From an uncultured Alphaproteobacteria bacterium (GTDB lineage: Bacteria; Pseudomonadota; Alphaproteobacteria; RF32; CAG-239), in assembly GCA_944391375.1 (NCBI GenBank), contig CALXTJ010000002.1, positions 82 through 64,081 on the forward strand: a stretch of DNA of 64,000 nucleotides. Reading direction: 5' to 3'. The notes under the pieces were generated by a model. That model was not told where the DNA came from and did not search any database. It saw nothing but the letters and a program-made list of their open reading frames with translations. How positions within the stretch are numbered: the first letter of the stretch is position 1; the number at the start of each line of letters is the position of its first letter. Shown here piece by piece: positions 15,190-53,984 of the stretch. A program made the translations under genes and the position numbers.

Positions 15190-15345
15190 TGATTTTATCT
15201 AAGCCGTCCGCTTGCACTCACTGCGTTTGTTTTTCCTAACATCTATATTCTCCTTATGAAGTCTAAAACATTTCTCATATATTAAAACACATATATAAGG
15301 ATATAAACAAGCTCAAAAGTGTCCGAAGATGTCCGAAAGTGTCCG
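15190..15345 (-). repeat. decayed inverted copy of the 33700-33900 element (leader, 3 x GTGTCCGAA-type 10-bp units, and a truncated MLGKTN... 5' gene fragment)
   Basis: The reverse complement aligns with 33729-33900: CGGACA units, TTGTTTAT...CCTTATAT block, RBS AAGGAGAA, then ATGTTAGGAAAAACAAAC... (MLGKTNAVSASGRLR*). Confidence 0.6.
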
Positions 15346-15460
15346 ATTGTATGAATTTGGGCTAAGAGGTATTATACTGATTTGTTATAATTTTAGAATT
15401 TTGTAGGAAAGAACATTAAATTTCATTTTCATGGGTTTAAATCCCACACGGGCTTTAAGC

Positions 15461-33566: not shown

Positions 33567-33699
33567 TATTTATTCTCTCTATAAGTTTACAAAATCACTC
33601 TCAATTCATATTACCAAATCAAACAAAAAACAACAAAAATAAGCAAAAATGTGCAAAAAATACACAATTTTTACCCGTTTTTTTATAAAATCAGACATT

Positions 33700-33803
33700 T
33701 TTAGCGTTTTTTAATAATATAAAACAATCGGACACTTTCGGACACTTTCGGACATTTTCGGACACATTTAAGCTTGTTTATCGCCTTATATGTATTTTAA
33801 TAT
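33700..33803 (+). promoter_or_regulatory. regulatory element: leader TTTTTTAATAATATAAAACAAT + 4 tandem 10-bp units (CGGACACTTT x2, CGGACATTTT, CGGACACATT) + putative promoter TTGTTT-N18-TAATAT
   Basis: Units at 33729-33768. The -35-like hexamer starts 5 bp after the array, the same geometry as the cassette promoters at 42976 and 47502. Confidence 0.5.
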
Positions 33804-33844: not shown

Positions 33845-35764
33845 ATGTTAGGTAAAACAAATGCAATAAACAAGTTCGTTAGCGGCGGAAGCGGAGATGT
33901 CGTTCAAGCCGTAAATCTTACCGGCAATTTGATAAATGCCGGTGATAAGGTATGGATAAATCAAAATACACAAATCGCAGGGAGTAATTTTCAAGTTAAA
34001 ACTACTAATAGTACTGCTATTAACTCTTACGGATTTGTTATTGATCCGACCGGTACCAGAGCTTGGACTTATAATATAGTCTACGATATATCCTCATCTG
34101 AGGCTACACAAATCAGTACCACAACTAATGCACAAGTTGATGTTGTACGATACGGTAAAAACGGGGAAATGTTTTTTAACAATGTACGGTGCGATGCCGG
34201 GGCATATTACCAATTTTCCAATACAAGCTCTCGTTATGTTGGCGATAATTATAAAACCAATCCGACCAAAATTGGTGTTGACGAATTTGATTTGAATACC
34301 GGAGCGGTTTTAAACACCTATTTGAGTACCAATACTTGGGAATCCAAAAACAACTATTTAAGTATGATAATGAGGAACGGTAAGTTTTATTATTTTAATA
34401 CATTAACAAATGGTGGCGGTATTTATGAAATAACTGATAATGAATTTGTAAAAACAAATGACATATCAGGGTGTGATAAAAGTTTTTATATTATAGGTTT
34501 AACATCAGATGATAAATATTTAATTTATTCTACATCACCCATACCTGCACAACGTTCGGGAAGAATTTATTTGGCCGAATTTGTTGATGATTATACAATA
34601 AGAACCTTGAGTGATGATGAATTGCCGATAGATTTGCAACCTTATTTCTTGGATAGTTGTACACCAACATTCAATCCCAACAACAATGTTTTATGTATTG
34701 GAGCAAACGGAAGCTATATGTTTTTACAATATGCCAATAATAATTGGACTAAACTTAATATTGATATTCCCACGAGCAATATATATAGGACATTATCTAT
34801 TTCACAAGATTTAAGCAAAGTTGGAGTGGGTAATTTCAACGGTAGTTCCGGAATTGTCTACAATATTACGGCTCAGGACGGATATGTATTGCAGAGCTAT
34901 TCGCCGACCAGAATTTCTGCCAATTCGCTAACCGGATTTGCCAATGCCGATATTGCCAATTTTGCAACTGGTGAGATAAATACAGCCTTAAAAGCTCATG
35001 TCTCTTATCCCGAACCTGAGCCTGAACCAGGTACCGAACAGTACGAAATTAACCAAGATACCCAAGGAGGTATAGTTTTCGTCGGTGATTTACAAACAGT
35101 GGCCGGTCCTTACGGTAATACGGTTGCTCAAATAACCGATACGACTCGTCTGACTTTGGGCAATGACGGGGCAAATATTTTTGCGGGAATGTTTGCTGAT
35201 ACTCAAACTGCCGACTGTTTTCGAATAAAATTTAAAATGCCGCGTAAAGGCATAAGTTCAGGAGGAACTTGGTACGCCTTATCGGATAGTTTGTCGCAAA
35301 ATGTGGACAATCCCACAGACGGTTGTGTCCGTTTTGGTTTTACGGCTTCCTGGGATGAACAAAATTCTGAAATTGATAGTCAATTAGTATCTTTTATAAT
35401 GGAAAGATATTCTTCCGAACAGGGTTGGGAAACCCCAATGAGAGTTGTCATGCCTGATTTTAAGCTGAACACATGGTATGATGTTATGTATTATTACGGA
35501 AAATATGCTGATTGGGAAATTGAAGAAAACGGTAATAGCGGATATTGCCTGCTCATAAATGTATATAATGAGGGAGGAGAGCTTATAGGAAGAGAAGTAT
35601 ATGATAATTATCCCAATGGCAGTATAGTTTCAACCGAAAATGTCCAAATCGGATATCCGATATATGCAACATCATATTTTTATATTGATGTAGATTTATC
35701 ACAAACCGGTTTTCAATTACTTGACAGTTGGGTATGGCGTCCGGTTAAGGAAATCAACAAATGA
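33845..35764 (+). CDS. large N/T/S/Y-rich hypothetical protein (possible phage tail-fiber/receptor-binding-like or surface protein)
   Basis: 639-aa ORF with strong RBS AAGGAGAAAA. It shares its upstream element with the cassette locus; a decayed copy of its 5' end lies near tRNA-Lys. Confidence 0.4.
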   Translation: MLGKTNAINKFVSGGSGDVVQAVNLTGNLINAGDKVWINQNTQIAGSNFQVKTTNSTAINSYGFVIDPTGTRAWTYNIVYDISSSEATQISTTTNAQVDVVRYGKNGEMFFNNVRCDAGAYYQFSNTSSRYVGDNYKTNPTKIGVDEFDLNTGAVLNTYLSTNTWESKNNYLSMIMRNGKFYYFNTLTNGGGIYEITDNEFVKTNDISGCDKSFYIIGLTSDDKYLIYSTSPIPAQRSGRIYLAEFVDDYTIRTLSDDELPIDLQPYFLDSCTPTFNPNNNVLCIGANGSYMFLQYANNNWTKLNIDIPTSNIYRTLSISQDLSKVGVGNFNGSSGIVYNITAQDGYVLQSYSPTRISANSLTGFANADIANFATGEINTALKAHVSYPEPEPEPGTEQYEINQDTQGGIVFVGDLQTVAGPYGNTVAQITDTTRLTLGNDGANIFAGMFADTQTADCFRIKFKMPRKGISSGGTWYALSDSLSQNVDNPTDGCVRFGFTASWDEQNSEIDSQLVSFIMERYSSEQGWETPMRVVMPDFKLNTWYDVMYYYGKYADWEIEENGNSGYCLLINVYNEGGELIGREVYDNYPNGSIVSTENVQIGYPIYATSYFYIDVDLSQTGFQLLDSWVWRPVKEINK

Positions 35765-41622: not shown

Positions 41623-42171
41623 ATGACAAATAAAAAATATAATCCATTTGCGGATATGTATAACTTCAATGCTAACAGCAGTAACTGGGTACAAAGGTTA
41701 GGGCATAATGCGGACTTTTATAATAATCCGCTGGGTTACAACAGCTCACCCACCCCCAGACCTTATGACAACACAACTGCCTCTGGTATAAATAACAGCT
41801 TTAATATCAATAACCGGCAGCCGTCTTCAAGCGGATTGGAAAGTTACAATCAACCTCAAAAGCAGCAGTATACTAGCCCTAAAGTAAAACCCTTTACTTC
41901 ATGGGATATTGCTTTATCAGCTCTTGAAGGATTTGGAGAGGGAGCAGTCGGCGGAATAGAACGAGATCTAAATACATCATCAAAAGGATTATATGATTTG
42001 GGTAGTGATCTTTTTTTTGACGGAAGCTATGAAAAAAGGCAAAAAGAACTTGAAAAACTGGCTCACGAAGCAAATTTGGATAAATTATACAAATATTCAA
42101 ACTATATTATAGATAACTCAATTGAGTATTTAATAAAATATATGTTTATAAAAAATCTGGGAATTTTCTGA
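41623..42171 (+). CDS. cassette protein A: conserved 48-aa N-terminal module (MTNKKYNPFADMYNFNANSSNWVQRLG...) plus variable C-terminal domain
   Basis: N-terminal 48 aa about 98% identical to the 47657 gene. Residues ~70-105 (SGLESYNQPQK...SALEGFGEG) are shared with the 46159 ORF. Confidence 0.5.
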   Translation: MTNKKYNPFADMYNFNANSSNWVQRLGHNADFYNNPLGYNSSPTPRPYDNTTASGINNSFNINNRQPSSSGLESYNQPQKQQYTSPKVKPFTSWDIALSALEGFGEGAVGGIERDLNTSSKGLYDLGSDLFFDGSYEKRQKELEKLAHEANLDKLYKYSNYIIDNSIEYLIKYMFIKNLGIF

Positions 42172-42249
42172 AATAATTTGCCTTGACATTGATTATCATA
42201 TTTTTTAAATCTGAAGATTATAGTAGGGTAAGTTTTATGGAGAATGTTG

Positions 42250-42783
42250 ATGAAAAAAATTACTGTATCAGATATTAACACCTGTATTTGGGGTGAAAGT
42301 CCGTTATCTTTTTATTTTTCCTTTGATGGAGTTTTTAATCGCTTGCAGTTTTTCGGAAGCATTGCTACATTAAACATTATCCTAAATATTATAAATGCTG
42401 CAGGAATATATATTTTGACGATGTTTGGTTATGCATTATGTCTTTATGCAATGCTGGCAGCAGCTCAAAAGCGTATGCATGATATGAATAGGCAAGGCAG
42501 TGCACTGATTTTGTTACTCTCTGTTAGTTGTATTTTAACAGGGGCTACGGCTCAATTGCATTTTTTGGGAGAAGTTGACATTGCCGAGAATATATACCTC
42601 AAAAACATTTTCGGAATATCGTTTTTAGTATATTTAGTTTTGCAAGCATTTTTATTGTTCATGCCCGGAGCAAAGAAGAAGGATATGAGCAAAAGAAGTC
42701 CGTTATTAAAAAATCCTCCGTTGTATTTTTTAATATGCGTGATAATTTATGCCATAGTCGCCTATTTTATCAGAGATTTATAG
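42250..42783 (+). CDS. DUF805-like inner-membrane protein (candidate cognate/immunity-like gene)
   Basis: YFSFDGVFNRLQFF and YAMLAAAQKRMHDMNRQGS resemble DUF805 motifs. The C-terminal 39 aa are identical to the 44135 protein. Confidence 0.45.
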   Translation: MKKITVSDINTCIWGESPLSFYFSFDGVFNRLQFFGSIATLNIILNIINAAGIYILTMFGYALCLYAMLAAAQKRMHDMNRQGSALILLLSVSCILTGATAQLHFLGEVDIAENIYLKNIFGISFLVYLVLQAFLLFMPGAKKKDMSKRSPLLKNPPLYFLICVIIYAIVAYFIRDL

Positions 42784-42802
42784 CCTGTAAGAGATTACCA
42801 AA

Positions 42803-42834
42803 GAGGGGGTAAAAGCTCCCTCTGTGGTATTTTA
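42803..42834 (+). terminator. terminator hairpin AGAGGGGG-TAAAA-GCTCCCTCT plus T-run (cassette boundary element, copy 1)
   Basis: Repeated at 44690 and 47326. Confidence 0.45.
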
Positions 42835-42845
42835 AAAGCAGACAA

Positions 42846-42970
42846 GGGAGAGGGAAATCGCTCTCAAAACGGACAAAAATGGCTTTTTTAATGACAAAAT
42901 CGGACACTTTCGGACGGTTCCGGACACTTTCGGACAGTTTCGGACAGTTTCGGACACTTTCGGACTGGAC
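42846..42970 (+). repeat. conserved leader (GGGAAATCGCTCTCAAAACGGACAAAAATGGCTTTTTTAATGACAAAAT) plus 7 phased 10-bp tandem units CGGAC(A/G)NTTT
   Basis: Units at 42901-42970: CGGACACTTT, CGGACGGTTC, CGGACACTTT, CGGACAGTTT, CGGACAGTTT, CGGACACTTT, CGGACTGGAC. Confidence 0.7.
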
Positions 42971-42975
42971 ATTTT

Positions 42976-43006
42976 TTGTAAAAAAAGGCTATAAAAAAGC
43001 TATAAT
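42976..43006 (+). promoter_or_regulatory. sigma70-like promoter TTGTAA-N19-TATAAT directly downstream of the 10-bp array
   Basis: Identical copy at 47502-47532. Confidence 0.45.
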
Positions 43007-43147
43007 CGTGAGAAGTTGTGCAAGCTGCTTTAAAAGAAAAGAGTGATGTTAAAAATGGTCGCAATACTATTGACAGTAGTTTAAGTGATAACTATGCTAA
43101 CGAAATAGGACGGCTGTTAGGAACAAAATATCGCAAAGGAGATTGTG

Positions 43148-43273
43148 ATGCTCTCATCCAACAATACATTAACAAAAATTGGTAAGTGGCTTATTGTATC
43201 TTTTGTTTTCGTTGCGGGGCTTGTGCTTACTGCCCTTATTAGTTTGAGCTGTGTCTACATCTTCAGCTTGTAA
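43148..43273 (+). CDS. small hydrophobic peptide (41 aa, one TM) downstream of cassette promoter
   Basis: MLSSNNTLTKIGKWLIVSFVFVAGLVLTALISLSCVYIFSL; below the 60-aa ORF-track cutoff. Confidence 0.2.
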   Translation: MLSSNNTLTKIGKWLIVSFVFVAGLVLTALISLSCVYIFSL

Positions 43274-43314
43274 CAGGTCTATAAAATTGTTTGAGTAAAA
43301 CAAGGAGATTGCTG

Positions 43315-44106
43315 ATGAAAAAGGCTCTGTACATTCTTTTAGAGGTCTTGTTTATATTTTTGATTGTAAATAATCGGGAATATTGGCTTGTTGCCGACCA
43401 AGCAGTCCGGGTAAGCGGAGTTTATGTATGGCTTATCTTAACGGCTTATTCTGTCCTTAAAACATACGGAGCCTTTAATTGGAAACTTACCATAAAACCT
43501 GTTTTTGTAATATGTGAACTATTGTTGTTTATATTATCGGGTTGCGTTTTGGAATTATACACCCAAAGTTTGGCAATAACCCCACAAATACACACTGTAT
43601 TTTTACCCTTAATTTTTTATGTTTTGGTATTGGGGACGGGATGGTATATACTGCCTAAAAACAACCCGACAATAAACGATTTTACCACCCATTGTCAACA
43701 GCATTCCAAACGTTATCTTGCTTTGATTTGGTTTTTGGCTGCCTTGTTTATATGTCCGCCGATTTTAACCGTTGTTTACAGCAAGGTATGGTTTGTGCTG
43801 ATACTGATGGGAATATACGTGTTTTTGCCGTATAAAATAAGTACTTTGTTGCTCAAAGATTTATCGTTAAACAAATTCTTTTCATTAGGAAAAGTAATTC
43901 CCGTAATGTTGATAATTTTTGTTCAGATAAATCTGGAAGCGATACTCAGTGGTTTTTGTTTTTACGGATCTTGGTTGGATGCTTATAGGTTGGTAAAATA
44001 CATAATAATTATTGCCGTTTTGCGGTGTATTATTTGCAGCTTAATATTATGCGTATTAGATTACAAACAAACCAAAGGATTATTTATAACAGCCAAAACA
44101 AAATAA
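43315..44106 (+). CDS. hypothetical polytopic membrane protein (cassette gene)
   Basis: About 8 TM helices. RBS AAGGAG 8 nt before ATG 43315. Confidence 0.4.
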   Translation: MKKALYILLEVLFIFLIVNNREYWLVADQAVRVSGVYVWLILTAYSVLKTYGAFNWKLTIKPVFVICELLLFILSGCVLELYTQSLAITPQIHTVFLPLIFYVLVLGTGWYILPKNNPTINDFTTHCQQHSKRYLALIWFLAALFICPPILTVVYSKVWFVLILMGIYVFLPYKISTLLLKDLSLNKFFSLGKVIPVMLIIFVQINLEAILSGFCFYGSWLDAYRLVKYIIIIAVLRCIICSLILCVLDYKQTKGLFITAKTK

Positions 44107-44134
44107 ATAAGGTTAATCATATAAGAGGTGATTT

Positions 44135-44671
44135 ATGGAAGAAGGAACAAAAAAGCCGGAAGAAGATGACGCATTGTTCAAAGAGGATGCCAAGACCATA
44201 TATTTTTCATTTGAAGGGGTATTCGGTCGCATACAATTTTTTATAGTAGCGGTTACCCTCGGTGGTTTTATGGATTTGATGAGTACGGGAAATAATATAG
44301 TACTCGTAGCCATAGGCACAGCCATAGTATTTTATGCGATGCTGGCAGCGATTCAAAAACGCAGTCGTGATATGAATATTGGCGGTAGTTTGTTTATTTT
44401 ATTGTATTCTCTGAGTTTTCCGATAAGTCGGATGATGTTATACGGTAGGGATACTGGAAATCCGATAATTATCCATAACGACATAATTCGGACCAGTTTT
44501 TACGGAGCGTTAATAGGATATTTGATAGTATCATTGCTTTTAGTGCTTATACCCGGAGCAAAGAAGAAGGATATGAGCAAAAGAAGTCCGTTATTAAAAA
44601 ATCCTCCGCTGTATTTTTTAATATGCGTAATAATTTATGCCATAGTCGCCTACTTTATCAGAGATTTATAG
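44135..44671 (+). CDS. DUF805-like inner-membrane protein, paralog of 42250..42783
   Basis: YFSFEGVFGRIQFF, YAMLAAIQKRSRDMNIGGS, and an identical C-terminal 39 aa. Confidence 0.45.
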   Translation: MEEGTKKPEEDDALFKEDAKTIYFSFEGVFGRIQFFIVAVTLGGFMDLMSTGNNIVLVAIGTAIVFYAMLAAIQKRSRDMNIGGSLFILLYSLSFPISRMMLYGRDTGNPIIIHNDIIRTSFYGALIGYLIVSLLLVLIPGAKKKDMSKRSPLLKNPPLYFLICVIIYAIVAYFIRDL

Positions 44672-44689
44672 TCTGTAAGAGATTACCAA

Positions 44690-44720
44690 AGAGGGGGTAA
44701 AAGCTCCCTCTTTAGTGTTT
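44690..44720 (+). terminator. cassette boundary terminator hairpin, copy 2
   Basis: AGAGGGGGTAAAAGCTCCCTCT plus TTAGTGTTTT. Confidence 0.45.
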
Positions 44721-44773
44721 TAAAAGCAGACACAATATATAGTAATTTTGTAACAAATATATTATGCACAAGT

Positions 44774-44800
44774 GCCGAAGCTCATAACTTCGGTATTTTT
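44774..44800 (+). terminator. conserved stem-loop GCCGAAG-CTCATAA-CTTCGGT plus T-run, copy 1 (just before RBS)
   Basis: Same element at 47602 and 48959. Confidence 0.45.
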
Positions 44801-44823
44801 TATATAAAAGAAAGGAAAAAATT

Positions 44824-44940
44824 ATGACAAATAAACTAATTACCATGGCTGGTAAATATGCAGTTAAAAAAGTTCGTAATAAAACCGTTAATAAGGCCAT
44901 GGAAAAAATAAGCGAGCCATATGAAAAATTCAAAAAATAG
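44824..44940 (+). CDS. small ORF (38 aa) starting MTNK..., possible decayed remnant of the conserved N-terminal module
   Basis: First 12 nt (ATGACAAATAAA) identical to the 41623 and 47657 genes. Preceded by the conserved stem-loop plus RBS. Confidence 0.2.
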   Translation: MTNKLITMAGKYAVKKVRNKTVNKAMEKISEPYEKFKK

Positions 44941-45145
44941 GTTTTCGGCATAAAACCTCTAAATGTTGGGGAAAGAGAAACCATAAAATGTTTACAAAAT
45001 CGTCATAATACCTTAGATTATTGTAAGAATATAGGAAACAAGGCAAGGAAAGCTTATCAAAAATCCGTAAAATATAGGTAACTTTTTATTAAAACCAAAA
45101 TACGCATCAACACGGACAATATGCACTGTATAACGGGAAGATAAT

Positions 45146-45406
45146 ATGAAAAAGATAATACTGTTTATAATTGGTCTTATGTGTATACCGCCGATATTGG
45201 GTTATTTGACGACATATGTAAGTAACAATCCGGAATATGAAATATACACCGGATTTTGGGGAGTCCTGTATCTATTTATTTATATTCTTTTTCCTTTGTT
45301 ATATAAAGGGAAAATAAAACAAGCTATGAATAGATATGCTTTTTATGCCTTGTTGTACGGCATTTTGTTTCTGATAATAAATATATTGCTCATTTGCTTT
45401 AATTAA
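45146..45406 (+). CDS. small membrane protein (3 TM), hypothetical
   Basis: ORF with hydrophobic helices. Confidence 0.3.
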   Translation: MKKIILFIIGLMCIPPILGYLTTYVSNNPEYEIYTGFWGVLYLFIYILFPLLYKGKIKQAMNRYAFYALLYGILFLIINILLICFN

Positions 45407-45464
45407 ATATGATGAAGCTGTAAAAAGCAGCAAGATTATAATGGTAAATAGAAAGGATAGAGAA

Positions 45465-45965
45465 ATGAAGAATATAATATTTTTACTGTTGGCAGTACTA
45501 ATTCCGACATTGAGTTTGGCAGCAGAAGAAAAGTCAATATTTACATATGAAGCAGAAAAATGTTCCGGTGAAGAAGATGTATTTATACGAGGTTTAGAGG
45601 AAGAATTAGCTAATTGTAAAATTCAAATGCCGGATAATCCATCTACGGTAGATATGAATGAAACTTATTACAAAGTCGGCGATTGCTCTATTGCTGTAGC
45701 CAATAAACTTTTTGATAGAAATTACAAAAAGTATAATGAGCAGGTAAAACAGGATTTTGATGCACTTGTCAAAGCATTTTATGCAAATGCTCATGATATG
45801 GTTCAACATAGCGATTTTGGACTTTTAAGAGGAGGAACTATGTACAATACGGAAGCCATTGCTACGGGGGCTTTTTGGATTAGAGATGTGGTAAAAGAAT
45901 ACCTTTATCAAGCACGAATGGAATGCGATGATAAGGCAGGATTTGATTCACTGGATATAGAATAG
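45465..45965 (+). CDS. secreted hypothetical protein (signal peptide)
   Basis: MKNIIFLLLAVLIPTLSLAAEEK signal; RBS AGGATAGAGA. Confidence 0.35.
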   Translation: MKNIIFLLLAVLIPTLSLAAEEKSIFTYEAEKCSGEEDVFIRGLEEELANCKIQMPDNPSTVDMNETYYKVGDCSIAVANKLFDRNYKKYNEQVKQDFDALVKAFYANAHDMVQHSDFGLLRGGTMYNTEAIATGAFWIRDVVKEYLYQARMECDDKAGFDSLDIE

Positions 45966-46062
45966 ATTATTTTAATCAAACAATGAAAAAGAGACTTGTA
46001 AAAGTCTCTTTTTTGTGCTTTTAAAGAAAGGAAAAATAAGTTAGGCTAGATAAAATGATATG

Positions 46063-46180
46063 GAAATCGCTCTCAAAACGGACAAAAACGGCGTATTTAA
46101 TGACAAAACCGAACAAAATTGAACAATTCTGAACAAAATTAAACAAAAGTGAACATTTTTGAACAAAATTGAACAATCTT
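46063..46180 (+). repeat. conserved leader plus variant phased 10-bp array (GAACAAAATT-type x7)
   Basis: Leader GGAAATCGCTCTCAAAACGGACAAAAACGGCGTATTTAATGACAAAACC. Units at 46111-46180: GAACAAAATT, GAACAATTCT, GAACAAAATT, AAACAAAAGT, GAACATTTTT, GAACAAAATT, GAACAATCTT. Confidence 0.65.
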
Positions 46181-46788
46181 TAAGCGGATTGGAAAGTTAC
46201 AATCAACCTCAAAAGAAGCAGTATACTAACCCTAAAGTAAAACCCTTTACTTCATGGGATATTGCTTTATCAGCTCTTGAAGGATTTGGAGAGGGTATTA
46301 TTGCTGTTCCTAATAGATCTTTTGAAATACTAAAAAACAGTCCTGATCGCCTATCTTCTCTGACAGATACGATGTATAATTTAGTTACAAATTCAAAAAA
46401 TTTATTTAATAATGAGCAAGAATATAAAACTAGAGATCCTGTTTCAACAAATCAATCTACCTTGGAAAATGTTATAAATTATTTGAAACAATACCAATTA
46501 GATAGAGAAATACAACTTTCAGATATTAACAAGCATCAACATATGAGCTGTTTATCAGGAAAGGATGGATTGAGTTTAGGTCTTTTAGGCTTAACAGTGG
46601 GTGCAGGAAAGGAAATAGCGGAGTTTTTCAAAAAATCTTTCAGTCCACAACAAAGAAAAGCATATGGTGGTATTAGCGGTATACTTGCAGACGGTATTAA
46701 AGATATGAATAATAATGTCAAAGGATTTAAACATTCTTATGTTGATGGTAAGGAATGTTATCCACTATTAAAAGAACCATTGCCATAA
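46159..46788 (+). CDS. orphan 5'-truncated cassette C-terminal module (shares a 113-bp junction region with the 41623 gene, then a distinct C-terminus)
   Basis: 46182-46294 is nearly identical to 41829-41943 (...SGLESYNQPQKKQYTNPKVKPFTSWDIALSALEGFGEG). The annotated start lies inside the repeat array, so the N-terminal module is missing. Confidence 0.4.
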   Translation: MNKIEQSLSGLESYNQPQKKQYTNPKVKPFTSWDIALSALEGFGEGIIAVPNRSFEILKNSPDRLSSLTDTMYNLVTNSKNLFNNEQEYKTRDPVSTNQSTLENVINYLKQYQLDREIQLSDINKHQHMSCLSGKDGLSLGLLGLTVGAGKEIAEFFKKSFSPQQRKAYGGISGILADGIKDMNNNVKGFKHSYVDGKECYPLLKEPLP

Positions 46789-46855
46789 TACTTTACAAAG
46801 CACATAAAAAGATTAAATATATAAGGAGGGTTATAATTGTTGGGAAATGTAATAA

Positions 46856-47314
46856 ATGATCATTAAACTGCAGAATGTTTTGTTTGTATTGGGAGTTACT
46901 TTTGTTATACAACTGCTATATATGTTGTTGATGTTTATAATTTTTTTATTAAATAACAATCTAGCAGTTAATAATGAAGAGCTTTTTTTATTTGTTTTGG
47001 ACAATGTTTTATTTGTATCCATAGCCTTAGGAGCCATTAACCTATTTAGTAATAGGTTGTCTTTATATATTTACGAAAAAAGTATAAAAAAAATACCTAA
47101 TTTACGGTGGTATTGTATGTTCTTTAGCTGGACTGTCATTATCCAAAAATTCATACCCGAATTTGAAATCTTTTATGCTGTTTTAATAAGTTGTATAGTT
47201 GGTGCATTGTGTTATCCTGATCGTACCTGGAAACAAAGAGTTAGATATTCATTGATATTTGTTGCTATTTTATTGATGTATTTCTTGGGAGGTTTTACCG
47301 ATTTTGAAAATTAA
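46856..47314 (+). CDS. small polytopic membrane protein (candidate cognate/immunity-like gene of orphan module)
   Basis: 4 TM helices, immediately downstream of 46159..46788. Confidence 0.35.
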   Translation: MIIKLQNVLFVLGVTFVIQLLYMLLMFIIFLLNNNLAVNNEELFLFVLDNVLFVSIALGAINLFSNRLSLYIYEKSIKKIPNLRWYCMFFSWTVIIQKFIPEFEIFYAVLISCIVGALCYPDRTWKQRVRYSLIFVAILLMYFLGGFTDFEN

Positions 47315-47325
47315 CATCATACCAA

Positions 47326-47360
47326 AGAGGGAGGATAAAAACTCCCTCTTTAGTGTTTTA
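47326..47360 (+). terminator. cassette boundary terminator hairpin, copy 3
   Basis: AGAGGGAGGATAAAAACTCCCTCT plus TTAGTGTTTT. Confidence 0.45.
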
Positions 47361-47371
47361 AAAGCAGACAA

Positions 47372-47496
47372 GGGATAGGGAAACCGCTCTCAAAGCGGAC
47401 AAAAACGGCGTATTTAATGACAAAATCGGACACTTTCGGACGGTTCCGGACACTTTCGGACATAATCGGACAGTTTCGGACACTTTCGGACTGGAC
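47372..47496 (+). repeat. conserved leader plus 7 phased 10-bp tandem units CGGACNNTTT, copy 3
   Basis: Units at 47427-47496: CGGACACTTT, CGGACGGTTC, CGGACACTTT, CGGACATAAT, CGGACAGTTT, CGGACACTTT, CGGACTGGAC. Confidence 0.7.
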
Positions 47497-47501
47497 ATTT
47501 T

Positions 47502-47532
47502 TTGTAAAAAAAGGCTATAAAAAAGCTATAAT
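47502..47532 (+). promoter_or_regulatory. sigma70-like promoter TTGTAA-N19-TATAAT, copy 2
   Basis: Identical to 42976-43006; lies 5 bp after the array. Confidence 0.45.
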
Positions 47533-47567
47533 CGTGAGAATTTGTGCAAACTACAAAATCTCACGAT
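47531..47567 (+). promoter_or_regulatory. perfect 9-bp inverted repeat ATCGTGAGA-N19-TCTCACGAT overlapping the -10/+1 region (operator-like)
   Basis: Read directly from the sequence. Only the left half-site is present in copy 1 (43005-43013). Confidence 0.4.
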
Positions 47568-47601
47568 TATATTTTAACTTAAACTAAAATTTTAACAACA
47601 A

Positions 47602-47632
47602 ATACCGAAGCTCATAACTTCGGTATTTTTTT
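47602..47632 (+). terminator. conserved stem-loop ATACCGAAG-CTCATAA-CTTCGGTAT plus T7, copy 2 (attenuator/terminator-like, directly before RBS of 47657)
   Basis: Perfect 9-bp stem plus T-run, between the promoter and the gene. Confidence 0.5.
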
Positions 47633-47656
47633 ATTTAAAAGAAAGGAAAATAAATC

Positions 47657-48379
47657 ATGACAAATAAAAAATATAATCCATTTGCGGATATGTATAACTT
47701 CAATGCCAACAGCAGTAACTGGGTGCAAAGGTTAGGATATAATGCGGATTTTTATAATAATCCGCTGGGCTATAACAGCTCTCCCACCCCCAGACCTTAT
47801 AAAATCGCCAGTAATGATATACCAGTGGTAAATAACAATAAAAAAGTTGATTACTCAGCTTATGGAGAGGGTTTTAGTAAAGAATTTATTGATAAGATGC
47901 TTGATGATAAACGTTTCAATAATATCATGAACAGTAGAGTAATAAATAACGAAGGTGGATACGTTAATCATCCTAATGATTTAGGAGGTGAAACAAAATA
48001 TGGGATTACTAGTAGATGGTATCCTAATGAAGATATAAAAAACCTAACAAGAGAAAGGGCTAATGCTATTTTATACAGAGACTATTGGCAAAAAACAAAT
48101 ATTCATCAACTTCCCGATGAATTTGCCGATATTGTTTTTGATGACAGCATTGTTCAAGGACAGCCAACAGCTATTAGAAATTTACAAAAAGCTTTGGGTG
48201 TTAATGATGATGGTATCATCGGTCCCAAAACATTAAAAGCATTTCAGCACCAAAATCACAATATTATACGAACAAAATTTATAAAAAATGTTAATGATGT
48301 TGAAAATGAAAATATAAAGAACAACCCTTCTCAAAAAGTTTTTGAAAAGGGTCATAGAAACAGATTTAACGCTTATTAG
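47657..48379 (+). CDS. cassette protein with conserved N-terminal module plus GH108-like lysozyme domain and PG_binding_3-like domain
   Basis: N-terminal 48 aa shared with 41623. GGYVNHPNDLGGETKYGIT resembles the GH108 signature (EGGYVNDPxDxGGxTxxGIT). C-terminal ...ALGVNDDGIIGPKT resembles a peptidoglycan-binding domain. Confidence 0.6.
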   Translation: MTNKKYNPFADMYNFNANSSNWVQRLGYNADFYNNPLGYNSSPTPRPYKIASNDIPVVNNNKKVDYSAYGEGFSKEFIDKMLDDKRFNNIMNSRVINNEGGYVNHPNDLGGETKYGITSRWYPNEDIKNLTRERANAILYRDYWQKTNIHQLPDEFADIVFDDSIVQGQPTAIRNLQKALGVNDDGIIGPKTLKAFQHQNHNIIRTKFIKNVNDVENENIKNNPSQKVFEKGHRNRFNAY

Positions 48380-48837
48380 TTTCTAGCTAATATTGACCTA
48401 ATTATAGTTGATATATAATTTTTTAGTGCTTCAGTTGTGGCGTATTCGCTATATAAATAAGGTGAAACGCCACAATTATTTTTACGGCAATAGTTAGTTT
48501 CATTATATACAAATAAATAGTTGTCATACATATAATTATCATACTGATTAAGGCGTTCCCTTGCTTCTCTGTCAGATAAATTATAGTATTCTGTTATAAT
48601 TATTTCACCTACATCTTTATAGCAATCTCTGGTTTTATGATGTAAATCAATTAAAAAGTTATAACATTTCATACTCCAAGTTTCAGGGCATGTTGTACTT
48701 TGTTTAGTAAATTCATCAGAACATTTTATAAAATCATCATCTAATTTATTTATAGAGGATGATATTTCAGCACTAACACTGGTTGCAGACATTAAAAAGC
48801 TCAAAAGAGAAATAATGTATATTTTTTTCATAATCAA
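48376..48837 (-). CDS. secreted Cys-rich periplasmic protein, convergent with GH108 gene (candidate immunity protein)
   Basis: Signal peptide MIMKKIYIISLLSFLMSATSVSA, 8 Cys residues, RBS AAGGA. Its stop overlaps the 47657 gene's stop. Confidence 0.4.
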   Translation of the reverse strand: MIMKKIYIISLLSFLMSATSVSAEISSSINKLDDDFIKCSDEFTKQSTTCPETWSMKCYNFLIDLHHKTRDCYKDVGEIIITEYYNLSDREARERLNQYDNYMYDNYLFVYNETNYCRKNNCGVSPYLYSEYATTEALKNYISTIIRSILARN

Positions 48838-48958
48838 TTATCCTTATGCATAAAACCGACGAAGAAAGTTTAGATTTAATCCATAATATAAGCAACAACT
48901 TTTATAGTTAAAGCACAAGAAAATAATATTTTAACTCAAACTAAAATTTTAACAACCA

Positions 48959-48989
48959 ATACCGAAGCTCATAACTTCGGTATTTTTTT
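48959..48989 (+). terminator. conserved stem-loop ATACCGAAG-CTCATAA-CTTCGGTAT plus T-run, copy 3, directly before RBS of portal gene
   Basis: Identical to the element at 47602. Preceded by the shared block TTAACTCAAACTAAAATTTTAACAACCAAT. Confidence 0.5.
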
Positions 48990-49008: not shown

Positions 49009-50787
49009 ATGTTCGCATATACTCTTGAAAAAGAAAGCTTTATGTCAACGGGAAATCCCGATGATAAGCGGGCAGTAGTTCAAGATGTGGTGGATTTATT
49101 CACATCTTGGGATACTGTTCGTACCAAACAAAAAAATATTGCCGATAAGTTGCATTCGGAAATCTATCTGGATGACCGAAAAAAAACTTATGTCCCGGAA
49201 GATGACGAATGGAAATCGGATATCCATCTTAATAAAATCTATTCGTTATTCCAAACACATCAGGCCTACATTTGGGATAATATCTATTCTAATGTGGAAA
49301 ATATGTTTGATGTTGAAGGAATTGATGATCTTTCGGCACAAACGGCTTTGTTGCAAAAACAAAAACTGGTTAATACCTTTTATAATATCGGTATTCAACG
49401 CAAGCTGGATACCGCTATTGAGCATTTAGACAGTGTCGGTGAAATTTGTTTGTTTATCGGTTGGCAAAAAAAATATAAACAAATCCGCCGTCGTTTGGAT
49501 AAATTCAGCTCCTCTGCCGATAAGCCCTTGCTTACTCAAGGCTTGTTCGGGGTGTTTAATCAGGAAATTTATAACGGAGCCGATGTTGAGGCCATCAACC
49601 CGCTCAATTTGGTATTTGACCCCAGGGTTAATCCCGACGATAAGGAAAAATGGGATGCCTGTGGTAAAATTATTAAATCATGGGAAACTTATCAGTCGGT
49701 AGCTTCCAATAAATTGTATAATCTTAAAAAAGAAGAGCTTGATGATTTGCATAAAATGTTAAACTCTCCTTCCAAAGATGAAGATCGTTCGGAAACCGAT
49801 AAAACCGATGATGTGGTTGATAGCGATAGGGTTGAGGTTTTACAATATTGGGGGGATTATGTTACCCCCAAAGGCAATGTTTTAAAAAACTGGCATATCG
49901 TAGTTATCGGTCGTAAATATCTGGCGGTGTTTGAACCTAATCGCTGGGTAATTAACCCGATTATCAATATGGCTTTGTTTAGGGATATCAACAGTAAACG
50001 AGGTATTCCCGAATTATGGTCCATTTACGATATATGTAAGGAACAGGAAAATAAAGTAAACTTACAAAATGATGCTCAATCACTTAACCTAAATCCTCCG
50101 GCCTATGCTCCGGAGGGTTTTTTTAAGGAGGAAAAAGTAAAACTCTTCCCCGGTAAACAAGTGGAATACAAACAGGGTCTTGAAGATCCCGGAGCAATCA
50201 TCAAAATGCAGTTTCCGTTGTTCAGCAATGAAAATATTATTCAGTATTATGACAATACGGCTTCAAGCGTAAGCGGTATTTTTCCCAATATGCAGGGACA
50301 ACAGGAAATAAGCAAAGCCACGGCCACCGAAATAAGCATTAAGGTTCAGGGACAAACCACGCGTTTGGGTAAAACTTTGGATACCATCAAGCAAAATGTT
50401 ATTGTCCCGATGGTGCAAAAAGTTGCCGAACTTGAAGCTAATATGAAATTCGGCGATGAGGTTTTAAAGCTTAACATTTTGGGGTATCCGGTTACCAAAA
50501 CCATTGATGATGTGGTGCGTCAGGGCAATTATGAATATCGTTATACCGATAATACCGGTATTCAGAAAAAACTTAACACCAATCAAACGCTTATTCAGAT
50601 TTTTACGCAAATCTGGAATGATGAAAGCGTCCCCTTAAACAAACTGCAAATTGTTAAAGAAGTACTGCGTAATGCCGGCATAGAAAATACCGAAAAGTTT
50701 TTTCTAAGCCAAAATCAAATTCCGGCAGCCAATCAAAATACAGCGGCTGCCGGTGTCAACAATAATCTTTTACCCGTTCAAAAGTAG
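49009..50787 (+). CDS. putative phage portal (head-to-tail connector) protein
   Basis: 592-aa protein heading a module with scaffold-like and capsid-like genes in podovirus order. Assigned from size, position and composition only. Confidence 0.45.
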   Translation: MFAYTLEKESFMSTGNPDDKRAVVQDVVDLFTSWDTVRTKQKNIADKLHSEIYLDDRKKTYVPEDDEWKSDIHLNKIYSLFQTHQAYIWDNIYSNVENMFDVEGIDDLSAQTALLQKQKLVNTFYNIGIQRKLDTAIEHLDSVGEICLFIGWQKKYKQIRRRLDKFSSSADKPLLTQGLFGVFNQEIYNGADVEAINPLNLVFDPRVNPDDKEKWDACGKIIKSWETYQSVASNKLYNLKKEELDDLHKMLNSPSKDEDRSETDKTDDVVDSDRVEVLQYWGDYVTPKGNVLKNWHIVVIGRKYLAVFEPNRWVINPIINMALFRDINSKRGIPELWSIYDICKEQENKVNLQNDAQSLNLNPPAYAPEGFFKEEKVKLFPGKQVEYKQGLEDPGAIIKMQFPLFSNENIIQYYDNTASSVSGIFPNMQGQQEISKATATEISIKVQGQTTRLGKTLDTIKQNVIVPMVQKVAELEANMKFGDEVLKLNILGYPVTKTIDDVVRQGNYEYRYTDNTGIQKKLNTNQTLIQIFTQIWNDESVPLNKLQIVKEVLRNAGIENTEKFFLSQNQIPAANQNTAAAGVNNNLLPVQK

Positions 50788-50799
50788 AAAGTATTTATC

Positions 50800-51000: not shown

Positions 51001-51002
51001 AA

Positions 51003-51992: not shown

Positions 51993-52016
51993 TTTAATTT
52001 TTGAAAGGAAAAAACT

Positions 52017-52955: not shown

Positions 52956-52995
52956 CATTAAAATAGAGTCATATAAATCCTTTCGTTATAAAAAA

Positions 52996-53974: not shown

Positions 53975-53984
53975 GGAGGCGGCC

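What the first reader, a model, noticed from the sequence alone, without database searches (positions are those of the whole stretch)
42846..43013. Recurring regulatory module: conserved leader, then 7 phased 10-bp tandem units (CGGACACTTT-type), then a promoter 5 bp later, then an operator-like inverted repeat
Three near-identical copies occur at 42846-43013, 46063-46180 (here with a different unit family, GAACAAAATT x7) and 47372-47567.

Each begins with the leader GGAAATCGCTCTCAAAACGGACAAAAA-GGCG-TATTTAATGACAAAA. The units have an exact 10-bp period, one helical turn, and each ends in a T-tract, which predicts intrinsic curvature. The array ends 5 bp before a TTGTAA-N19-TATAAT promoter, so the arrays occupy the UP-element / activator position (-40 to -110).

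A perfect 9-bp inverted repeat (ATCGTGAGA...TCTCACGAT) overlaps the -10/+1 region in copy 3; only the left half-site remains in copy 1. Two unit families behind the same leader suggest either two regulators or iteron-like variability.

The same element, with the same array-to-hexamer geometry, precedes the 33845 gene. It is not CRISPR: units are 10 bp with no spacers.
Basis: seen in the sequence. Interest (0 to 1): 0.75.

Follow-up and report, generated by a model that had tools for sequence, protein, structure and literature searches.

The report
Phased CGGAC decamer arrays before promoters
Runs of three to seven exactly 10-bp-spaced CGGAC motifs sit a fixed 15 bp in front of promoter-like sequences for phage-derived genes in an uncultured gut bacterium. 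They look like a docking platform for an unidentified protein that binds once per turn of the DNA helix, a known type of control element in a new sequence form.

Summary
CGGAC-type 10-bp arrays lie at 42900-42969 and 47426-47495 (7 units each), 33728-33767 (4 units) and 15316-15346 on the minus strand (3 units). A TGAACAAAAT-type array lies at 46103-46176.

- CGGAC is invariant in 45 of 45 units from three strains, while unit position 8 is almost free.
- At all four CGGAC arrays the last in-phase CGGAC starts exactly 15 bp before a TTGT(A/T)(A/T) hexamer. An A/T-rich -10-like hexamer follows 17 or 19 bp later.
- Downstream genes are a hypervariable beta-propeller protein and polymorphic effector genes. 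They lie in or near a terminase-less podovirus-like island of a probable alphaproteobacterium.

Best reading (about 0.5): a phased operator or upstream activating array for an oligomeric protein that binds one subunit per helical turn. MraZ boxes are the closest known architecture; half the units read AAAGTGT on the opposite strand. No candidate binder was found.

- The T-tract curvature argument fails for the CGGAC arrays.
- The inverted repeat is a 45-nt hairpin that contains the -10.
- The second unit family is an allele of a CGGAC array in another strain, in a truncated module.
- The modules coincide with recombination junctions of toxin-immunity cassette displacement.

CGGAC arrays in unrelated phages do not clearly exceed the base rate.

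The parts
42802..42823 (+). Terminator-like hairpin of the upstream DUF805-like gene; start of the repeated segment shared by copies 1 and 3
   Evidence: Terminator scan; repeat family D2
42846..42899 (+). Copy 1 leader (GGGAAATCGCTCTCAAAACGGACAAAAATGGCTTTTTTAATGACAAAA). It contains degenerate in-phase units (TGGCT, ATGAC) and one CGGAC that is 1 bp out of phase
42900..42969 (+). Copy 1 array: 7 decamers of type TCGGACNNTT. An extra TGGACA follows, 5 bp out of phase, at 42966-42971
   Evidence: TRF; pattern search; unit table
42976..43006 (+). Copy 1 promoter-like pair: TTGTAA (42976-42981), 19-nt spacer containing an 11-bp direct repeat AAAAAAG(G)CTAT, then TATAAT (43001-43006)
   Evidence: Sequence; TRF period 11; 0-1 differences in 41 nt between paralogous modules
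43001..43024 (+). Left arm of the palindrome only. The recombination junction lies at 43024/43025, after which the displaced C-terminus of the old effector (ORF 43018-43185) follows
   Evidence: blastn of L259 against the window; alignments
46057..46102 (+). Copy 2 leader, preceded by an RBS-like remnant instead of the terminator hairpin
46103..46176 (+). Copy 2 array: 7 decamers of type TGAACAAAAT with phased A4 tracts. It is allelic to a CGGAC array in strain L268. It ends exactly where homology to the middle of effector gene 41623 begins (46177)
   Evidence: TRF; (family D6)
47324..47351 (+). Terminator-like hairpin upstream of copy 3
47372..47425 (+). Copy 3 leader
47426..47495 (+). Copy 3 array: 7 CGGAC decamers
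   Evidence: nearly identical in another sample, L250
47502..47532 (+). Copy 3 promoter-like pair: TTGTAA, 19-nt spacer, TATAAT
   Evidence: Sequence
47527..47571 (+). 45-nt palindrome or hairpin (13-bp outer stem plus inner stem) that includes the TATAAT and is followed by TTTT
   Evidence: RNA fold: -34.9 kcal/mol for 47527-47660, z = -7.8; outer stem invariant in 3 sequences
47600..47635 (+). 'D5' terminator-like hairpin ATACCGAAGCTCATAACTTCGGTAT plus T7, directly before the RBS and ATG (47657) of the GH108 effector. The same hairpin precedes 44835 and the portal gene at 49009
   Evidence: Repeat family D5; terminator scan; fold
33620..33712 (+). Phased A5-6 tracts followed by T5-7 tracts (about 10-bp period) upstream of the 33.7k array; candidate intrinsically curved DNA
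33728..33767 (+). 4-unit CGGAC array upstream of the hypervariable 639-aa gene (ATG at 33845). Strains L259 and L260 have 5 units
33774..33803 (+). Promoter-like pair: TTGTTT, 17-nt spacer, TTAATA (or 18 nt to TAATAT)
   Evidence: Sequence; conserved blocks in the paralog alignment
15316..15346 (-). 3-unit CGGAC array downstream of tRNA-Lys, followed by TTGTTT, a 19-nt spacer, TTAATA, an RBS and a 15-codon remnant (MLGKTNAVSASGRLR*)

Best explanation
The CGGAC decamer arrays are cis-regulatory protein-binding platforms. An oligomeric DNA-binding protein recognises the pentamer or hexamer CGGAC(A), which reads TGTCCG on the other strand. It binds once per helical turn along one face of the DNA, immediately upstream of a weak sigma-70-like promoter (TTGTWW, 17-19 nt, TATAAT-like), and sets that promoter's activity.

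The controlled genes are accessories of a degenerate, terminase-less podovirus-like island. They are a hypervariable beta-propeller protein, possibly receptor-binding, and polymorphic effector genes.

In the effector modules the transcript would then meet a strong 45-nt hairpin and a terminator-like hairpin before the RBS. Expression there is probably also gated after initiation.

**Shown:** the arrays, the invariant core with free spacer positions, the fixed 15-bp offset to the hexamer, co-orientation with the genes, and stronger conservation of array plus promoter than of flanks.

**Inferred:** that a protein binds, that the hexamers are a promoter, and the sign of regulation.

The binder is unknown. 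The best architectural model is an MraZ/AbrB-type ring or filament with one subunit per 10-bp box. OmpR/PhoB-type tandem dimers or Xis/Cox-type filaments are alternatives.
For: **Core versus spacer.** In 45 units from the window and two other strains, positions 2-6 (CGGAC) are invariant at 2.0 bits each. Position 8 carries 0.55 bit. This is the pattern of a recognition core plus spacer, not of a recently slipped identical repeat.

**Phase.** The period is exactly 10 with no indels across 7 units. The 4-versus-5-unit polymorphism adds exactly one unit, which preserves phase.

**Geometry.** The offset from the last in-phase CGGAC to the TTGTWW hexamer is 15 bp at all four CGGAC arrays. This holds although sequences between array and gene differ between the MLGKTNA-type and effector-type loci.

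**Orientation.** All five arrays are co-oriented with the next ORF.

**Conservation.** Among paralogous and orthologous modules, the array core shows 0 differences in 34-35 positions and the promoter-like part 0-1 in 41. The leader shows 1-9 in 48. The upstream segment shows 12-15 in 56-60 between paralogous copies 1 and 3, but only 1 in 56 between orthologous copies in the two strains.

**Precedent.** MraZ binds 3-4 direct GTG(G/T) boxes with 6-nt spacers, one subunit per box (PMC12957436, read; PMC8475190). The E. coli Pmra boxes AGTGGGAAAT / TGTGGGGCAA / AGTGGGAATA were read directly from the genome. The commonest unit here reads AAAGTGTCCG on the opposite strand. Box 2 of the M. genitalium probe is AAAGTGTCGC.
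Against: - No candidate binding protein is encoded in the window or in the fetched loci. Pfam and PHROGs found no DNA-binding domain among the unassigned ORFs that were scanned in and around the island. phmmer with MraZ, AbrB and MazE found nothing.
- The promoter is only a consensus match with a 19-nt spacer in three of four cases and is not listed by the scan. No transcription data exist.
- In strain L268 one effector gene start has the array joined directly to the terminator-like hairpin and RBS, without the TTGTAA/TATAAT pair.
- Copies 1 and 3 could owe their similarity to duplication and gene conversion. The L268 m1 and m2 arrays are identical.
- The portal operon has the D5 hairpin but no array, so the arrays do not mark every promoter of the island.
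- A distant homologue of the 639-aa gene has no array (L261).
- Only 22 of 45 units contain GTGT, and the invariant bases (TGTCCG) are not those of MraZ boxes.
Confidence: 0.5

Rival explanations
1. Recombination-associated repeat. The array, with the adjoining palindrome, is mainly a hotspot or homology anchor for cassette exchange. It marks the conserved 5' edge of genes that are swapped between strains (effector-immunity cassettes and the hypervariable 639-aa gene). Any promoter activity is secondary.
For: - The window segment 41776-43024 (new effector C-terminus, DUF805-like gene and module copy 1) replaces 274 bp of strain L259. Its right junction falls in the loop of the palindrome.
- The copy 2 array ends exactly at the breakpoint with a 5'-truncated effector at 46176/46177.
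- In L268 the array is fused directly to the D5 hairpin by a 95-bp deletion.
- Arrays are homogenised within a strain: L268 m1 equals m2, although their leaders differ at 5 of 48 positions.
- The 639-aa gene keeps its array, first 41 codons and last 27 codons, but its centre is only about 30% identical between strains.
- Metagenome assemblies break at the modules.
Against: - Junction positions differ: 53 bp after the array, at its end, or inside its last unit. That fits fragile repeats better than a defined recombination site.
- No recombinase gene was found in the island.
- This reading does not explain the invariant pentamer with free spacers, or the fixed 15-bp offset to a promoter-like hexamer.
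Confidence: 0.15
2. Functionless minisatellite. A decamer was amplified by replication slippage inside one promoter cassette. It was then copied around by segmental duplication and gene conversion, with no sequence-specific role.
For: - Copies 1 and 3 are 92% identical including flanks.
- Unit number is polymorphic, 4 versus 5.
- Ten-bp tandem arrays with arbitrary cores are common. Permuted-core controls gave 33 and 9 viral contigs, against 83 for CGGAC, and those 83 collapse into about 17 families.
- The leader has no true match outside this species; the three exact matches found in metagenome contigs are chance matches in unrelated sequence.
Against: - 45 of 45 units keep CGGAC while neighbouring positions vary. 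Random decay would also hit the core.
- The arrays at the MLGKTNA-type loci have different flanks but the same offset to the hexamer.
- Array and promoter-like part are more conserved than the surrounding sequence.
Confidence: 0.2
3. Protein-independent architectural element. The phased repeats bend the DNA and act like an UP element or curved upstream activator.
For: - The period is exactly 10 bp and the position is upstream of -35.
- Genuinely phased A/T tracts exist just upstream of the 33.7k array and in the copy 2 array.
Against: - CGGAC units contain only T2-T3 runs. No A/T tract of 4 or more lies inside the arrays apart from one T4 in the 33.7k array and the T-run after the last unit of copies 1 and 3. 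From established knowledge, A-tract bending needs runs of about 4-6.
- The conserved part is the G+C-rich pentamer, not the T-run.
- UP elements are A/T-rich.
Confidence: 0.05
4. Transcribed repeat or replication/partition site. The array acts either as RNA (a protein sponge or leader element) or as iterons or a centromere of the phage-like element.
For: - GGA-containing repeats recall CsrA sponges, a resemblance from memory only.
- In unrelated viral contigs, CGGAC arrays lie next to primase/helicase genes (L130, L148, L127, L128).
Against: - A terminator-like hairpin precedes copies 1 and 3, so read-through is not expected.
- The array RNA has no unusual fold, z = -1.6.
- No Rfam family matches.
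- No rep, par or primase gene lies in the island.
- Those viral contigs share no sequence with the window.
- Arrays also occur at 33.7k and 15.3k, outside the island.
Confidence: 0.05

Closest known systems
MraZ boxes (MraZ binding repeats) in mraZ/dcw promoters
   Same: - Three or more direct repeats with a strict 10-bp period, with a short conserved core plus a variable spacer.
- One protein subunit per box, and the protein forms rings or open filaments (PMC12957436).
- About half of the units here read AAAGTGT on the reverse strand. That matches the Mollicutes box AAAGTG[T/G] (PMC8475190) and resembles the E. coli box AAAGTGGG.
   Different: - The invariant bases here are TGTCCG, not GTG(G/T); only 22 of 45 units have GTGT.
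- Up to 7 units, rather than 3-4.
- The arrays are upstream of -35 and on the strand opposite to the gene. The E. coli boxes lie downstream of the promoter on the gene strand.
- They are not at an mraZ/dcw promoter, and no MraZ gene lies in the sequence held.
OmpR/PhoB-family response-regulator sites (OmpR F1-F3, TorR tor boxes, pho boxes, ToxR heptads at ctxAB)
   Same: From my knowledge of these systems:
- Tandem direct repeats with a 10-11 bp period abut or overlap -35, on one DNA face, over about -40 to -100.
- At ctxAB the unit number varies between strains.
- Tor boxes are decamers.
   Different: - Those sites are usually 2-6 units read as head-to-tail dimers, often with an 11-bp period.
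- Their cores are A/T-rich, for example GTTACA, CTGTCA or TTTTGAT.
- No response-regulator gene was found nearby. The ECF sigma factor at 62852-63346 is unrelated in mechanism.
Xis/Cox-type and ParR/omega-type filaments on short tandem repeats
   Same: From my knowledge: small winged-helix or ribbon-helix-helix proteins of phages and plasmids coat 4-10 phased short direct repeats next to a promoter and regulate it.
   Different: - No integrase, excisionase or partition genes lie in the island.
- The repeat sequences are unrelated.
- Arrays also occur outside the island.
Orphan toxin-immunity cassette arrays of polymorphic toxin loci (Rhs, CDI, MafB type)
   Same: - A new C-terminal domain plus immunity gene displaces the old C-terminus downstream as a 5'-truncated orphan.
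- Shared sequence blocks permit recombination.
   Different: - This describes the context of the modules, not the arrays themselves.
- Here each displaced cassette carries a decamer array and promoter-like module at its edge.
- The effectors share a short N-terminal domain and lie beside phage head and tail genes, rather than beside a secretion system.

Membership tests
CRISPR array | Repeats of about 23-50 bp separated by unique spacers of similar length | tested here: not met
   Units are contiguous 10-mers with no spacers.
MraZ boxes | Three or more direct repeats with a 10-bp centre-to-centre spacing | tested here: met
   Period 10 with 0% indels and 3-7 units. The E. coli reference boxes were read.
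MraZ boxes | GTG(G/T) core conserved in every box | tested here: not met
   On the reverse strand 22 of 45 units read GTGT; the others read CTGT, CCGT, ATGT or CAGT. The invariant bases are GTCCG.
MraZ boxes | Located in the promoter or 5' region of mraZ and the dcw operon | tested here: not met
   Downstream genes are a beta-propeller protein and effector genes. No MraZ-like ORF occurs in the window or related loci. The organism's own mraZ promoter could not be fetched.
MraZ boxes | Bound by MraZ | not testable with these tools
   Needs EMSA or ChIP with this organism's MraZ.
OmpR/PhoB-type activator sites | Tandem direct repeats at 10-11 bp, adjacent to or overlapping -35 | tested here: met
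   The last in-phase CGGAC starts 15 bp before the -35-like hexamer at four loci. The arrays span about -48 to -113 relative to the inferred start.
OmpR/PhoB-type activator sites | Cognate response regulator identified | tested here: not met
   No response-regulator domain was found among the roughly 50 window ORFs scanned. The regulator could lie elsewhere in the genome.
Iterons of a plasmid or phage origin | Repeats, usually 17-22 bp, next to a rep/initiator gene and an A/T-rich unwinding region | tested here: not met
   Units are 10 bp. No rep, primase or helicase gene lies in the island.
UP element / phased A-tract curved DNA | A/T-rich sequence, or A/T tracts of 4 or more in helical phase | tested here: not met
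   The CGGAC arrays contain no tract of 4 or more apart from one T4 in the 33.7k array and the T-run after the last unit of copies 1 and 3. The feature is met only by the copy 2 array and by 33620-33712.
Sigma-70-type promoter | -35 and -10 hexamers 16-18 nt apart | tested here: inconclusive
   TATAAT is perfect and TTGTAA matches 4 of 6, but the spacer is 19 nt at copies 1 and 3 and at 15.3k, so the scan does not list them. The spacer is 17 nt at 33.7k. No transcription-start data exist.
MITE / REP-type mobile intergenic repeat | Terminal inverted repeats and target-site duplication; many dispersed copies | tested here: not met
   No terminal inverted repeats or duplications at the module edges. 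The leader occurs only 3 times in 64 kb. It has no true match in the viral or metagenome collections; three exact metagenome matches are chance.
Phase-variable simple-sequence contingency locus | Repeat-number changes that alter promoter spacing or reading frame | tested here: inconclusive
   Unit number differs between strains, 4 versus 5. Whole 10-bp units upstream of -35 change neither spacing nor phase.

The most novel reading that the evidence does not exclude
The arrays are the operators of a dedicated ring- or filament-forming regulator, MraZ-like in architecture but specific for TGTCCG. This regulator would co-ordinate a domesticated, terminase-less podovirus-like particle in gut alphaproteobacteria. 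The particle's exchangeable receptor-binding protein and its polymorphic effectors, which share a short N-terminal domain, would be expressed from array-controlled, terminator-gated promoters. That would make a phage-derived toxin-delivery system whose cassettes are swapped at the array modules.
Probability: 0.12. Interest if true: 0.8.

Novelty: new variant of a known kind. Interest (0 to 1): 0.45.

Why it matters
If a protein does read these arrays, they give a clean, testable handle on how an uncultured gut alphaproteobacterium controls a phage-derived gene set. A 5-base invariant core repeated once per helical turn is ideal for DNA pull-down.

It would also extend the 'one subunit per 10-bp box' mode of recognition, known from MraZ, to a new motif, to longer arrays and to a new class of targets.

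The modules also mark where toxin-immunity cassettes and a hypervariable surface-binding gene are exchanged between strains. They are therefore useful landmarks for studying strain-level warfare and host-range variation. They also explain why metagenome assemblies break here.

Tried and rejected
**1. Genome-wide scan for (CGGACN5)x4 in 185,579 species genomes.**
- It did show (C)ACGGAC decamer arrays, often as inverted pairs, in many phyla. No MraZ-like ORF lies next to them.

**2. CGGAC arrays in viral contigs.**
- There were 83 hits. I first read this as evidence for a widespread phage motif.
- Two permuted-core controls gave 33 and 9 hits, and the 83 hits collapse into about 17 families.
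- None shares sequence with the window, so I dropped that inference.

**3. Leader, D5 hairpin and promoter-like segment as exact patterns.** No true matches in viral or JGI metagenome contigs.

**4. Rfam.** Only tRNA-Lys at gathering threshold; only sub-threshold chance hits in 41.4-49.1 kb.

**5. Search for a regulator gene.**
- Pfam and PHROGs on about 50 ORFs found no DNA-binding domain in or near the island.
- phmmer with MraZ, AbrB and MazE was negative.

**6. Related phage L251 (portal 62% identical).** It has no decamer arrays. The distant MLGKTNA homologue L261 and the phage-like locus L263 have none either.

**7. CGGAC as a restriction or methylation target.** There is no avoidance outside the arrays: 30 and 57 observed on the two strands against about 41 expected each.

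**8. Covariation in the hairpin.** Three sequences are too few; no pair changes on both sides in the consensus structure.

**9. Structure of the 639-aa protein.** The model has mean pLDDT 61, with a beta-propeller at about residues 60-340. Matches are generic WD40 or propeller proteins. This suggests a binding protein but does not prove a tail fibre.

**10. Literature search for decamer arrays at phage promoters.** Nothing specific was found.
Full report
**1. What is in the sequence**

Tandem Repeats Finder reports period-10 arrays with no indels at four plus-strand sites:
- 42900-42965, 6.6 copies, consensus TCGGACACTT;
- 47426-47491, 6.6 copies;
- 46103-46176, 7.4 copies, a different unit (ACAAAACTGA register);
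- 33728-33765, 3.8 copies.

These arrays are not chance:
- CGGACNNTTNCGGAC with up to 2 mismatches matches 20 times against 2.2 expected. None of 100 shuffles reaches 20.
- My own period-10 self-identity scan finds arrays only at these loci, although it did not flag the shorter 15.3k array or the more divergent copy 2 array. It finds none in 50 shuffles.
- The leader TCGCTCTCAAAACGGACAAAAA occurs three times against 0 expected.

Copies 1 and 3 are 92% identical over 225 nt (42802-43026 versus 47328-47552). The shared stretch starts with a terminator-like hairpin of the upstream gene. Copy 2 shares the leader and the seven-unit layout only.

One addition is the fifth array. One correction is that the '9-bp inverted repeat' is the core of a 45-nt hairpin or palindrome at 47527-47571, with a 13-bp outer stem that includes the TATAAT itself. 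Folding 47527-47660 gives -34.9 kcal/mol, z = -7.8.

**2. Anatomy of the units**

I collected 45 CGGAC-type units from the window and from two other strains of the same species (L259, L268).
- Positions 2-6 (CGGAC) are invariant in all 45.
- Position 7 is A in 37.
- Position 8 is nearly free, at 0.55 bit.
- Positions 9-10 are mostly TT.

Among paralogous and orthologous modules:
- the array core shows 0 differences in 34-35 positions;
- the TTGTAA..TATAAT part shows 0-1 in 41;
- the leader shows 1-9 in 48;
- the upstream segment shows 12-15 in 56-60 between the paralogous copies, but only 1 in 56 between orthologous copies in the two strains.

The leader itself contains degenerate in-phase units (TGGCT or CGGCG, then ATGAC) and looks like an eroded extension of the array.

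The CGGAC units carry only T2-T3 runs. Inside these arrays there is no A/T tract of 4 or more, apart from one T4 in the 33.7k array and the T-run after the last unit of copies 1 and 3. Truly phased A/T tracts exist in the copy 2 array and at 33620-33712, upstream of the 33.7k array.

**3. Geometry relative to genes**

All five arrays point the same way as the next ORF. At the four CGGAC arrays, the last in-phase CGGAC starts exactly 15 bp before a TTGT(A/T)(A/T) hexamer:

| Locus | Last in-phase CGGAC start | Hexamer start |
|---|---|---|
| Copy 1 | 42961 | 42976 |
| Copy 3 | 47487 | 47502 |
| 33.7k | 33759 | 33774 |
| 15.3k (minus strand) | 15325 | 15310 |

An A/T-rich -10-like hexamer follows after 19, 19, 17 and 19 nt respectively (read).

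The sequences between array and start codon are homologous between 33.7k and 15.3k. They differ from those of the effector modules. The shared features across the two gene classes are thus the array, its offset and TTGT.

With the inferred start, the arrays cover about -48 to -113. The sigma-70 scan does not list the copy 1 and 3 pair because of the 19-nt spacer. No transcription data are available, so the promoter remains an inference.

**4. What lies downstream**

In copy 3 the putative transcript would run through three elements before the effector gene:
- the 45-nt hairpin, which is followed by UUUU;
- a second terminator-like hairpin, 'D5' (47600-47628 plus T7);
- the RBS and the ATG at 47657 of a 240-aa protein with a GH108 lysozyme domain.

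The same D5 hairpin plus RBS precedes a truncated gene at 44835 and the portal gene at 49009. Neither of these has an array.

The 33.7k array precedes a 639-aa protein with no family match.
- Its model (mean pLDDT 61) has a beta-propeller at about residues 60-340.
- Between strains the central part of this gene is replaced (30% identity), while the array, the first 41 codons and the last 27 codons are kept.
- The 15.3k array precedes a 15-codon remnant of the same gene start, next to tRNA-Lys.

**5. Context**

The region 49009-60171 encodes a portal, a scaffold-like protein, a major head protein, tail-tube-like proteins and a lysozyme. It contains no terminase, integrase, replication or regulator gene.

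The closest phage contig, L251 (portal 62% identical), has TerS, a homing endonuclease and TerL directly upstream of its portal. In the window that position is occupied by 7 kb of small genes:
- effectors sharing the N-terminus MTNKKYNPFADMYNF...;
- DUF805-like membrane proteins;
- 5'-truncated effector fragments.

Homologues in other samples carry other C-terminal domains, such as Tlde1-like and another GH108. This is a polymorphic effector locus.

The organism is probably an alphaproteobacterium. Its Hfq matches PDB 6gwk far better than any other Hfq (88.8 against 61 bits). From memory, 6gwk is the Caulobacter crescentus protein. Hfq is followed by hflX. All close relatives come from metagenome assemblies only.

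**6. Strain comparison**

*L259 and L260* (same species) have five units at the 33.7k locus. The window, L255 and L256 have four.

*L259* lacks copy 1 altogether. Window 41776-43024 holds a different effector C-terminus, a DUF805-like gene, a terminator, the leader, the array and the promoter-like part. This segment replaces 274 bp of L259. Homology resumes at 43025, in the loop of the palindrome and inside what in L259 is the intact effector gene. ORF 43018-43185 is therefore the displaced old C-terminus.

*L268* spans the whole region and has three modules. At the locus of copy 2, between flanks that are 97-99% identical, it carries a normal CGGAC array. That array is fused to the D5 hairpin, the RBS and a full effector gene start. 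The TTGTAA..TATAAT..palindrome segment is deleted there, a loss of 95 bp.

*The window's copy 2* has TGAAC-type units and runs straight into codon ~68 of the effector (46176/46177; family D6).
- The two alleles differ at 29 of about 70 array positions.
- Almost all differences are G/C in L268 against A/T in the window, and they are the same in each unit (CGGAC against TGAAC).
- I cannot polarise this change. The L268 m2 array is identical to the L268 m1 array, which suggests gene conversion.
- The 'second unit family' is thus an allele in a module that has lost its promoter-like part and its gene start. This weakens the two-regulator idea without excluding it.

The modules also break short-read assemblies.

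**7. Searches elsewhere, and a caution**

- The leader, the D5 hairpin and the promoter-like segment have no true matches in IMG/VR or JGI metagenome contigs.
- CGGACNNTTN x3 hits 83 viral contigs with G+C from 26 to 64%, several next to primase/helicase genes. I considered a widespread phage motif.
- Two controls with permuted cores gave 33 and 9 contigs. The 83 hits fall into about 17 families, and none is related to the window. The excess is modest, so I do not build on it.
- The genome scan was saturated by G+C-rich repeats and did not find the source species.

**8. Mechanism**

Four features together are what is expected of a protein-binding platform read once per helical turn:
- an invariant pentamer with free spacer positions;
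- a strict 10-bp phase that is kept when a unit is gained;
- a fixed 15-bp offset to a promoter-like hexamer at two gene classes;
- conservation higher than in the flanks.

The closest documented architecture is the MraZ operator.
[quoted passage not shown] Each is bound by one subunit of a ring that opens into a filament (PMC12957436; Mollicutes consensus AAAGTG[T/G], PMC8475190; B. subtilis GTGG[A/T]G repeats, bioRxiv 10.1101/2022.02.09.479790).
- I read the E. coli boxes directly: AGTGGGAAAT, TGTGGGGCAA, AGTGGGAATA.
- The commonest unit here is AAAGTGTCCG on the opposite strand. That is one base from box 2 of the M. genitalium probe, AAAGTGTCGC.

As a membership claim this fails. Only 22 of 45 units contain GTGT. 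The invariant bases are TGTCCG. The arrays are upstream of -35, on the non-gene strand, and not at a dcw promoter.

I therefore state that the element works like an MraZ-type phased operator, not that it is one. OmpR/PhoB-type tandem sites and Xis/Cox-type filaments are alternative models, from my knowledge of those systems. No binder gene was found.

Whether the protein activates or represses is open. Two features fit activation: the 19-nt spacer and the upstream curved DNA at 33.7k. The two hairpins before the effector RBS suggest additional control after initiation. The L268 m2 arrangement (array but no -35/-10 pair) and the array-less portal operon argue for caution.

**9. Rivals**

- *Recombination-related role (0.15).* It is supported by the junctions at or near the arrays and the palindrome, by homogenisation of arrays within strains, and by the fact that every array-linked gene is a swapped or hypervariable gene. 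It is weakened by the scatter of junction positions and the absence of a recombinase.
- *Functionless minisatellite (0.20).* It fits the duplication history and the base rate of decamer arrays. It does not fit the 45-of-45 core conservation or the fixed offset at non-homologous loci.
- *Pure curvature (0.05).* It fails on the composition of the units.
- *RNA or origin/partition roles (0.05).* These lack any supporting feature.

**10. Verdict**

This is a real, non-random and conserved element. Its most likely function is a phased protein-binding array at promoters of phage-derived accessory genes, which makes it a new sequence variant of a known regulatory architecture. The binder is unidentified and the promoter function is untested.

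Interest is moderate. The surrounding biology is the more unusual part and deserves its own follow-up: a terminase-less podovirus-like island, a polymorphic effector locus, and cassette displacement at the modules.

Noticed in passing
window 49009-60171 (with 41623-48837): This is a podovirus-like head and tail gene set (portal, scaffold-like protein, major head protein, tail-tube-like proteins, lysozyme) with no terminase, integrase, replication or regulator genes. It is 98.7% conserved in another strain (L268). The nearest phage contig, L251, has TerS, a homing endonuclease and TerL exactly where the window has effector and immunity genes. It may be a domesticated particle.
   Followed up: partly
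window 41623-42171, 46159-46788, 47657-48379, 43018-43185, 44835-44950: Polymorphic effector family sharing the N-terminus MTNKKYNPFADMYNFNANSSNWVQRLG... and, in some members, a central SGLESYNQPQK...EGFGEG block. C-terminal domains vary (GH108 lysozyme here; Tlde1-like in homologue P0018). Displaced 5'-truncated orphans and DUF805-like putative immunity genes accompany them.
   Followed up: partly
window 29669-30245, inside hflX (28872-30554): HflX is 560 aa here but 434 aa in strain L259. A 577-bp segment replaces 199 bp in frame and encodes a stretch with an HELAH (HExxH-like) motif.
   Followed up: no
window 33970-35684: The central part of the 639-aa gene is replaced between strains (about 30% identity) while both ends and the flanks stay 99% identical. 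The model shows a beta-propeller. Shorter homologues are followed by a DUF1353 gene. It may be an exchangeable receptor-binding protein.
   Followed up: partly
window 62553-63346: An ECF sigma factor (Sigma70_r2 / r4_2, 164 aa) lies behind a small ORF. Upstream is an EcfG-like promoter match, TGAAC-N17-CGTT. It sits 2.7 kb from the island, and many metagenome contigs end just downstream of it.
   Followed up: no
window 44770-44798, 47600-47628, 48958-48984: The same terminator-like hairpin (ACCGAAGCTCATAACTTCGGT plus a T-run) occurs three times, each about 20 nt before an RBS. One of these precedes the portal gene. This suggests attenuation or antitermination control of the island genes.
   Followed up: partly
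loci L001-L120 (genome scan), e.g. L064, L042, L029, L046: Many unrelated phyla (Acidobacteriota, Lentisphaerae, Verrucomicrobiota, Hydrogenedentota and others) carry four or more ACACGGACNN decamers, often followed by the inverted copy. Together these form long hairpin-capable palindromes. No MraZ-like ORF lies nearby.
   Followed up: partly
L130:11210-11410; L148, L127, L128: In unrelated viral contigs, CGGACA decamers in both orientations cluster at the 3' end of primase/helicase genes. These may be origin or operator sites of those phages. The L130 units (CGGACACTTT, CGGACAGTTT) are identical to those of the window, but the contig shares no other sequence with it.
   Followed up: partly
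window 60114-60161: A 15-bp tandem repeat (TCACAAAAAAGCTAA, about 3 copies) lies at the 3' end of ORF 59623-60171. It is a coding lysine-rich repeat just before a terminator-like hairpin.
   Followed up: no
window 15241-15572 (minus strand): tRNA-Lys is followed by a terminator, a 3-unit array and a 15-codon remnant of the MLGKTNA gene, which abuts algH on the other strand. This is a relic of a second copy of the array-controlled gene.
   Followed up: partly
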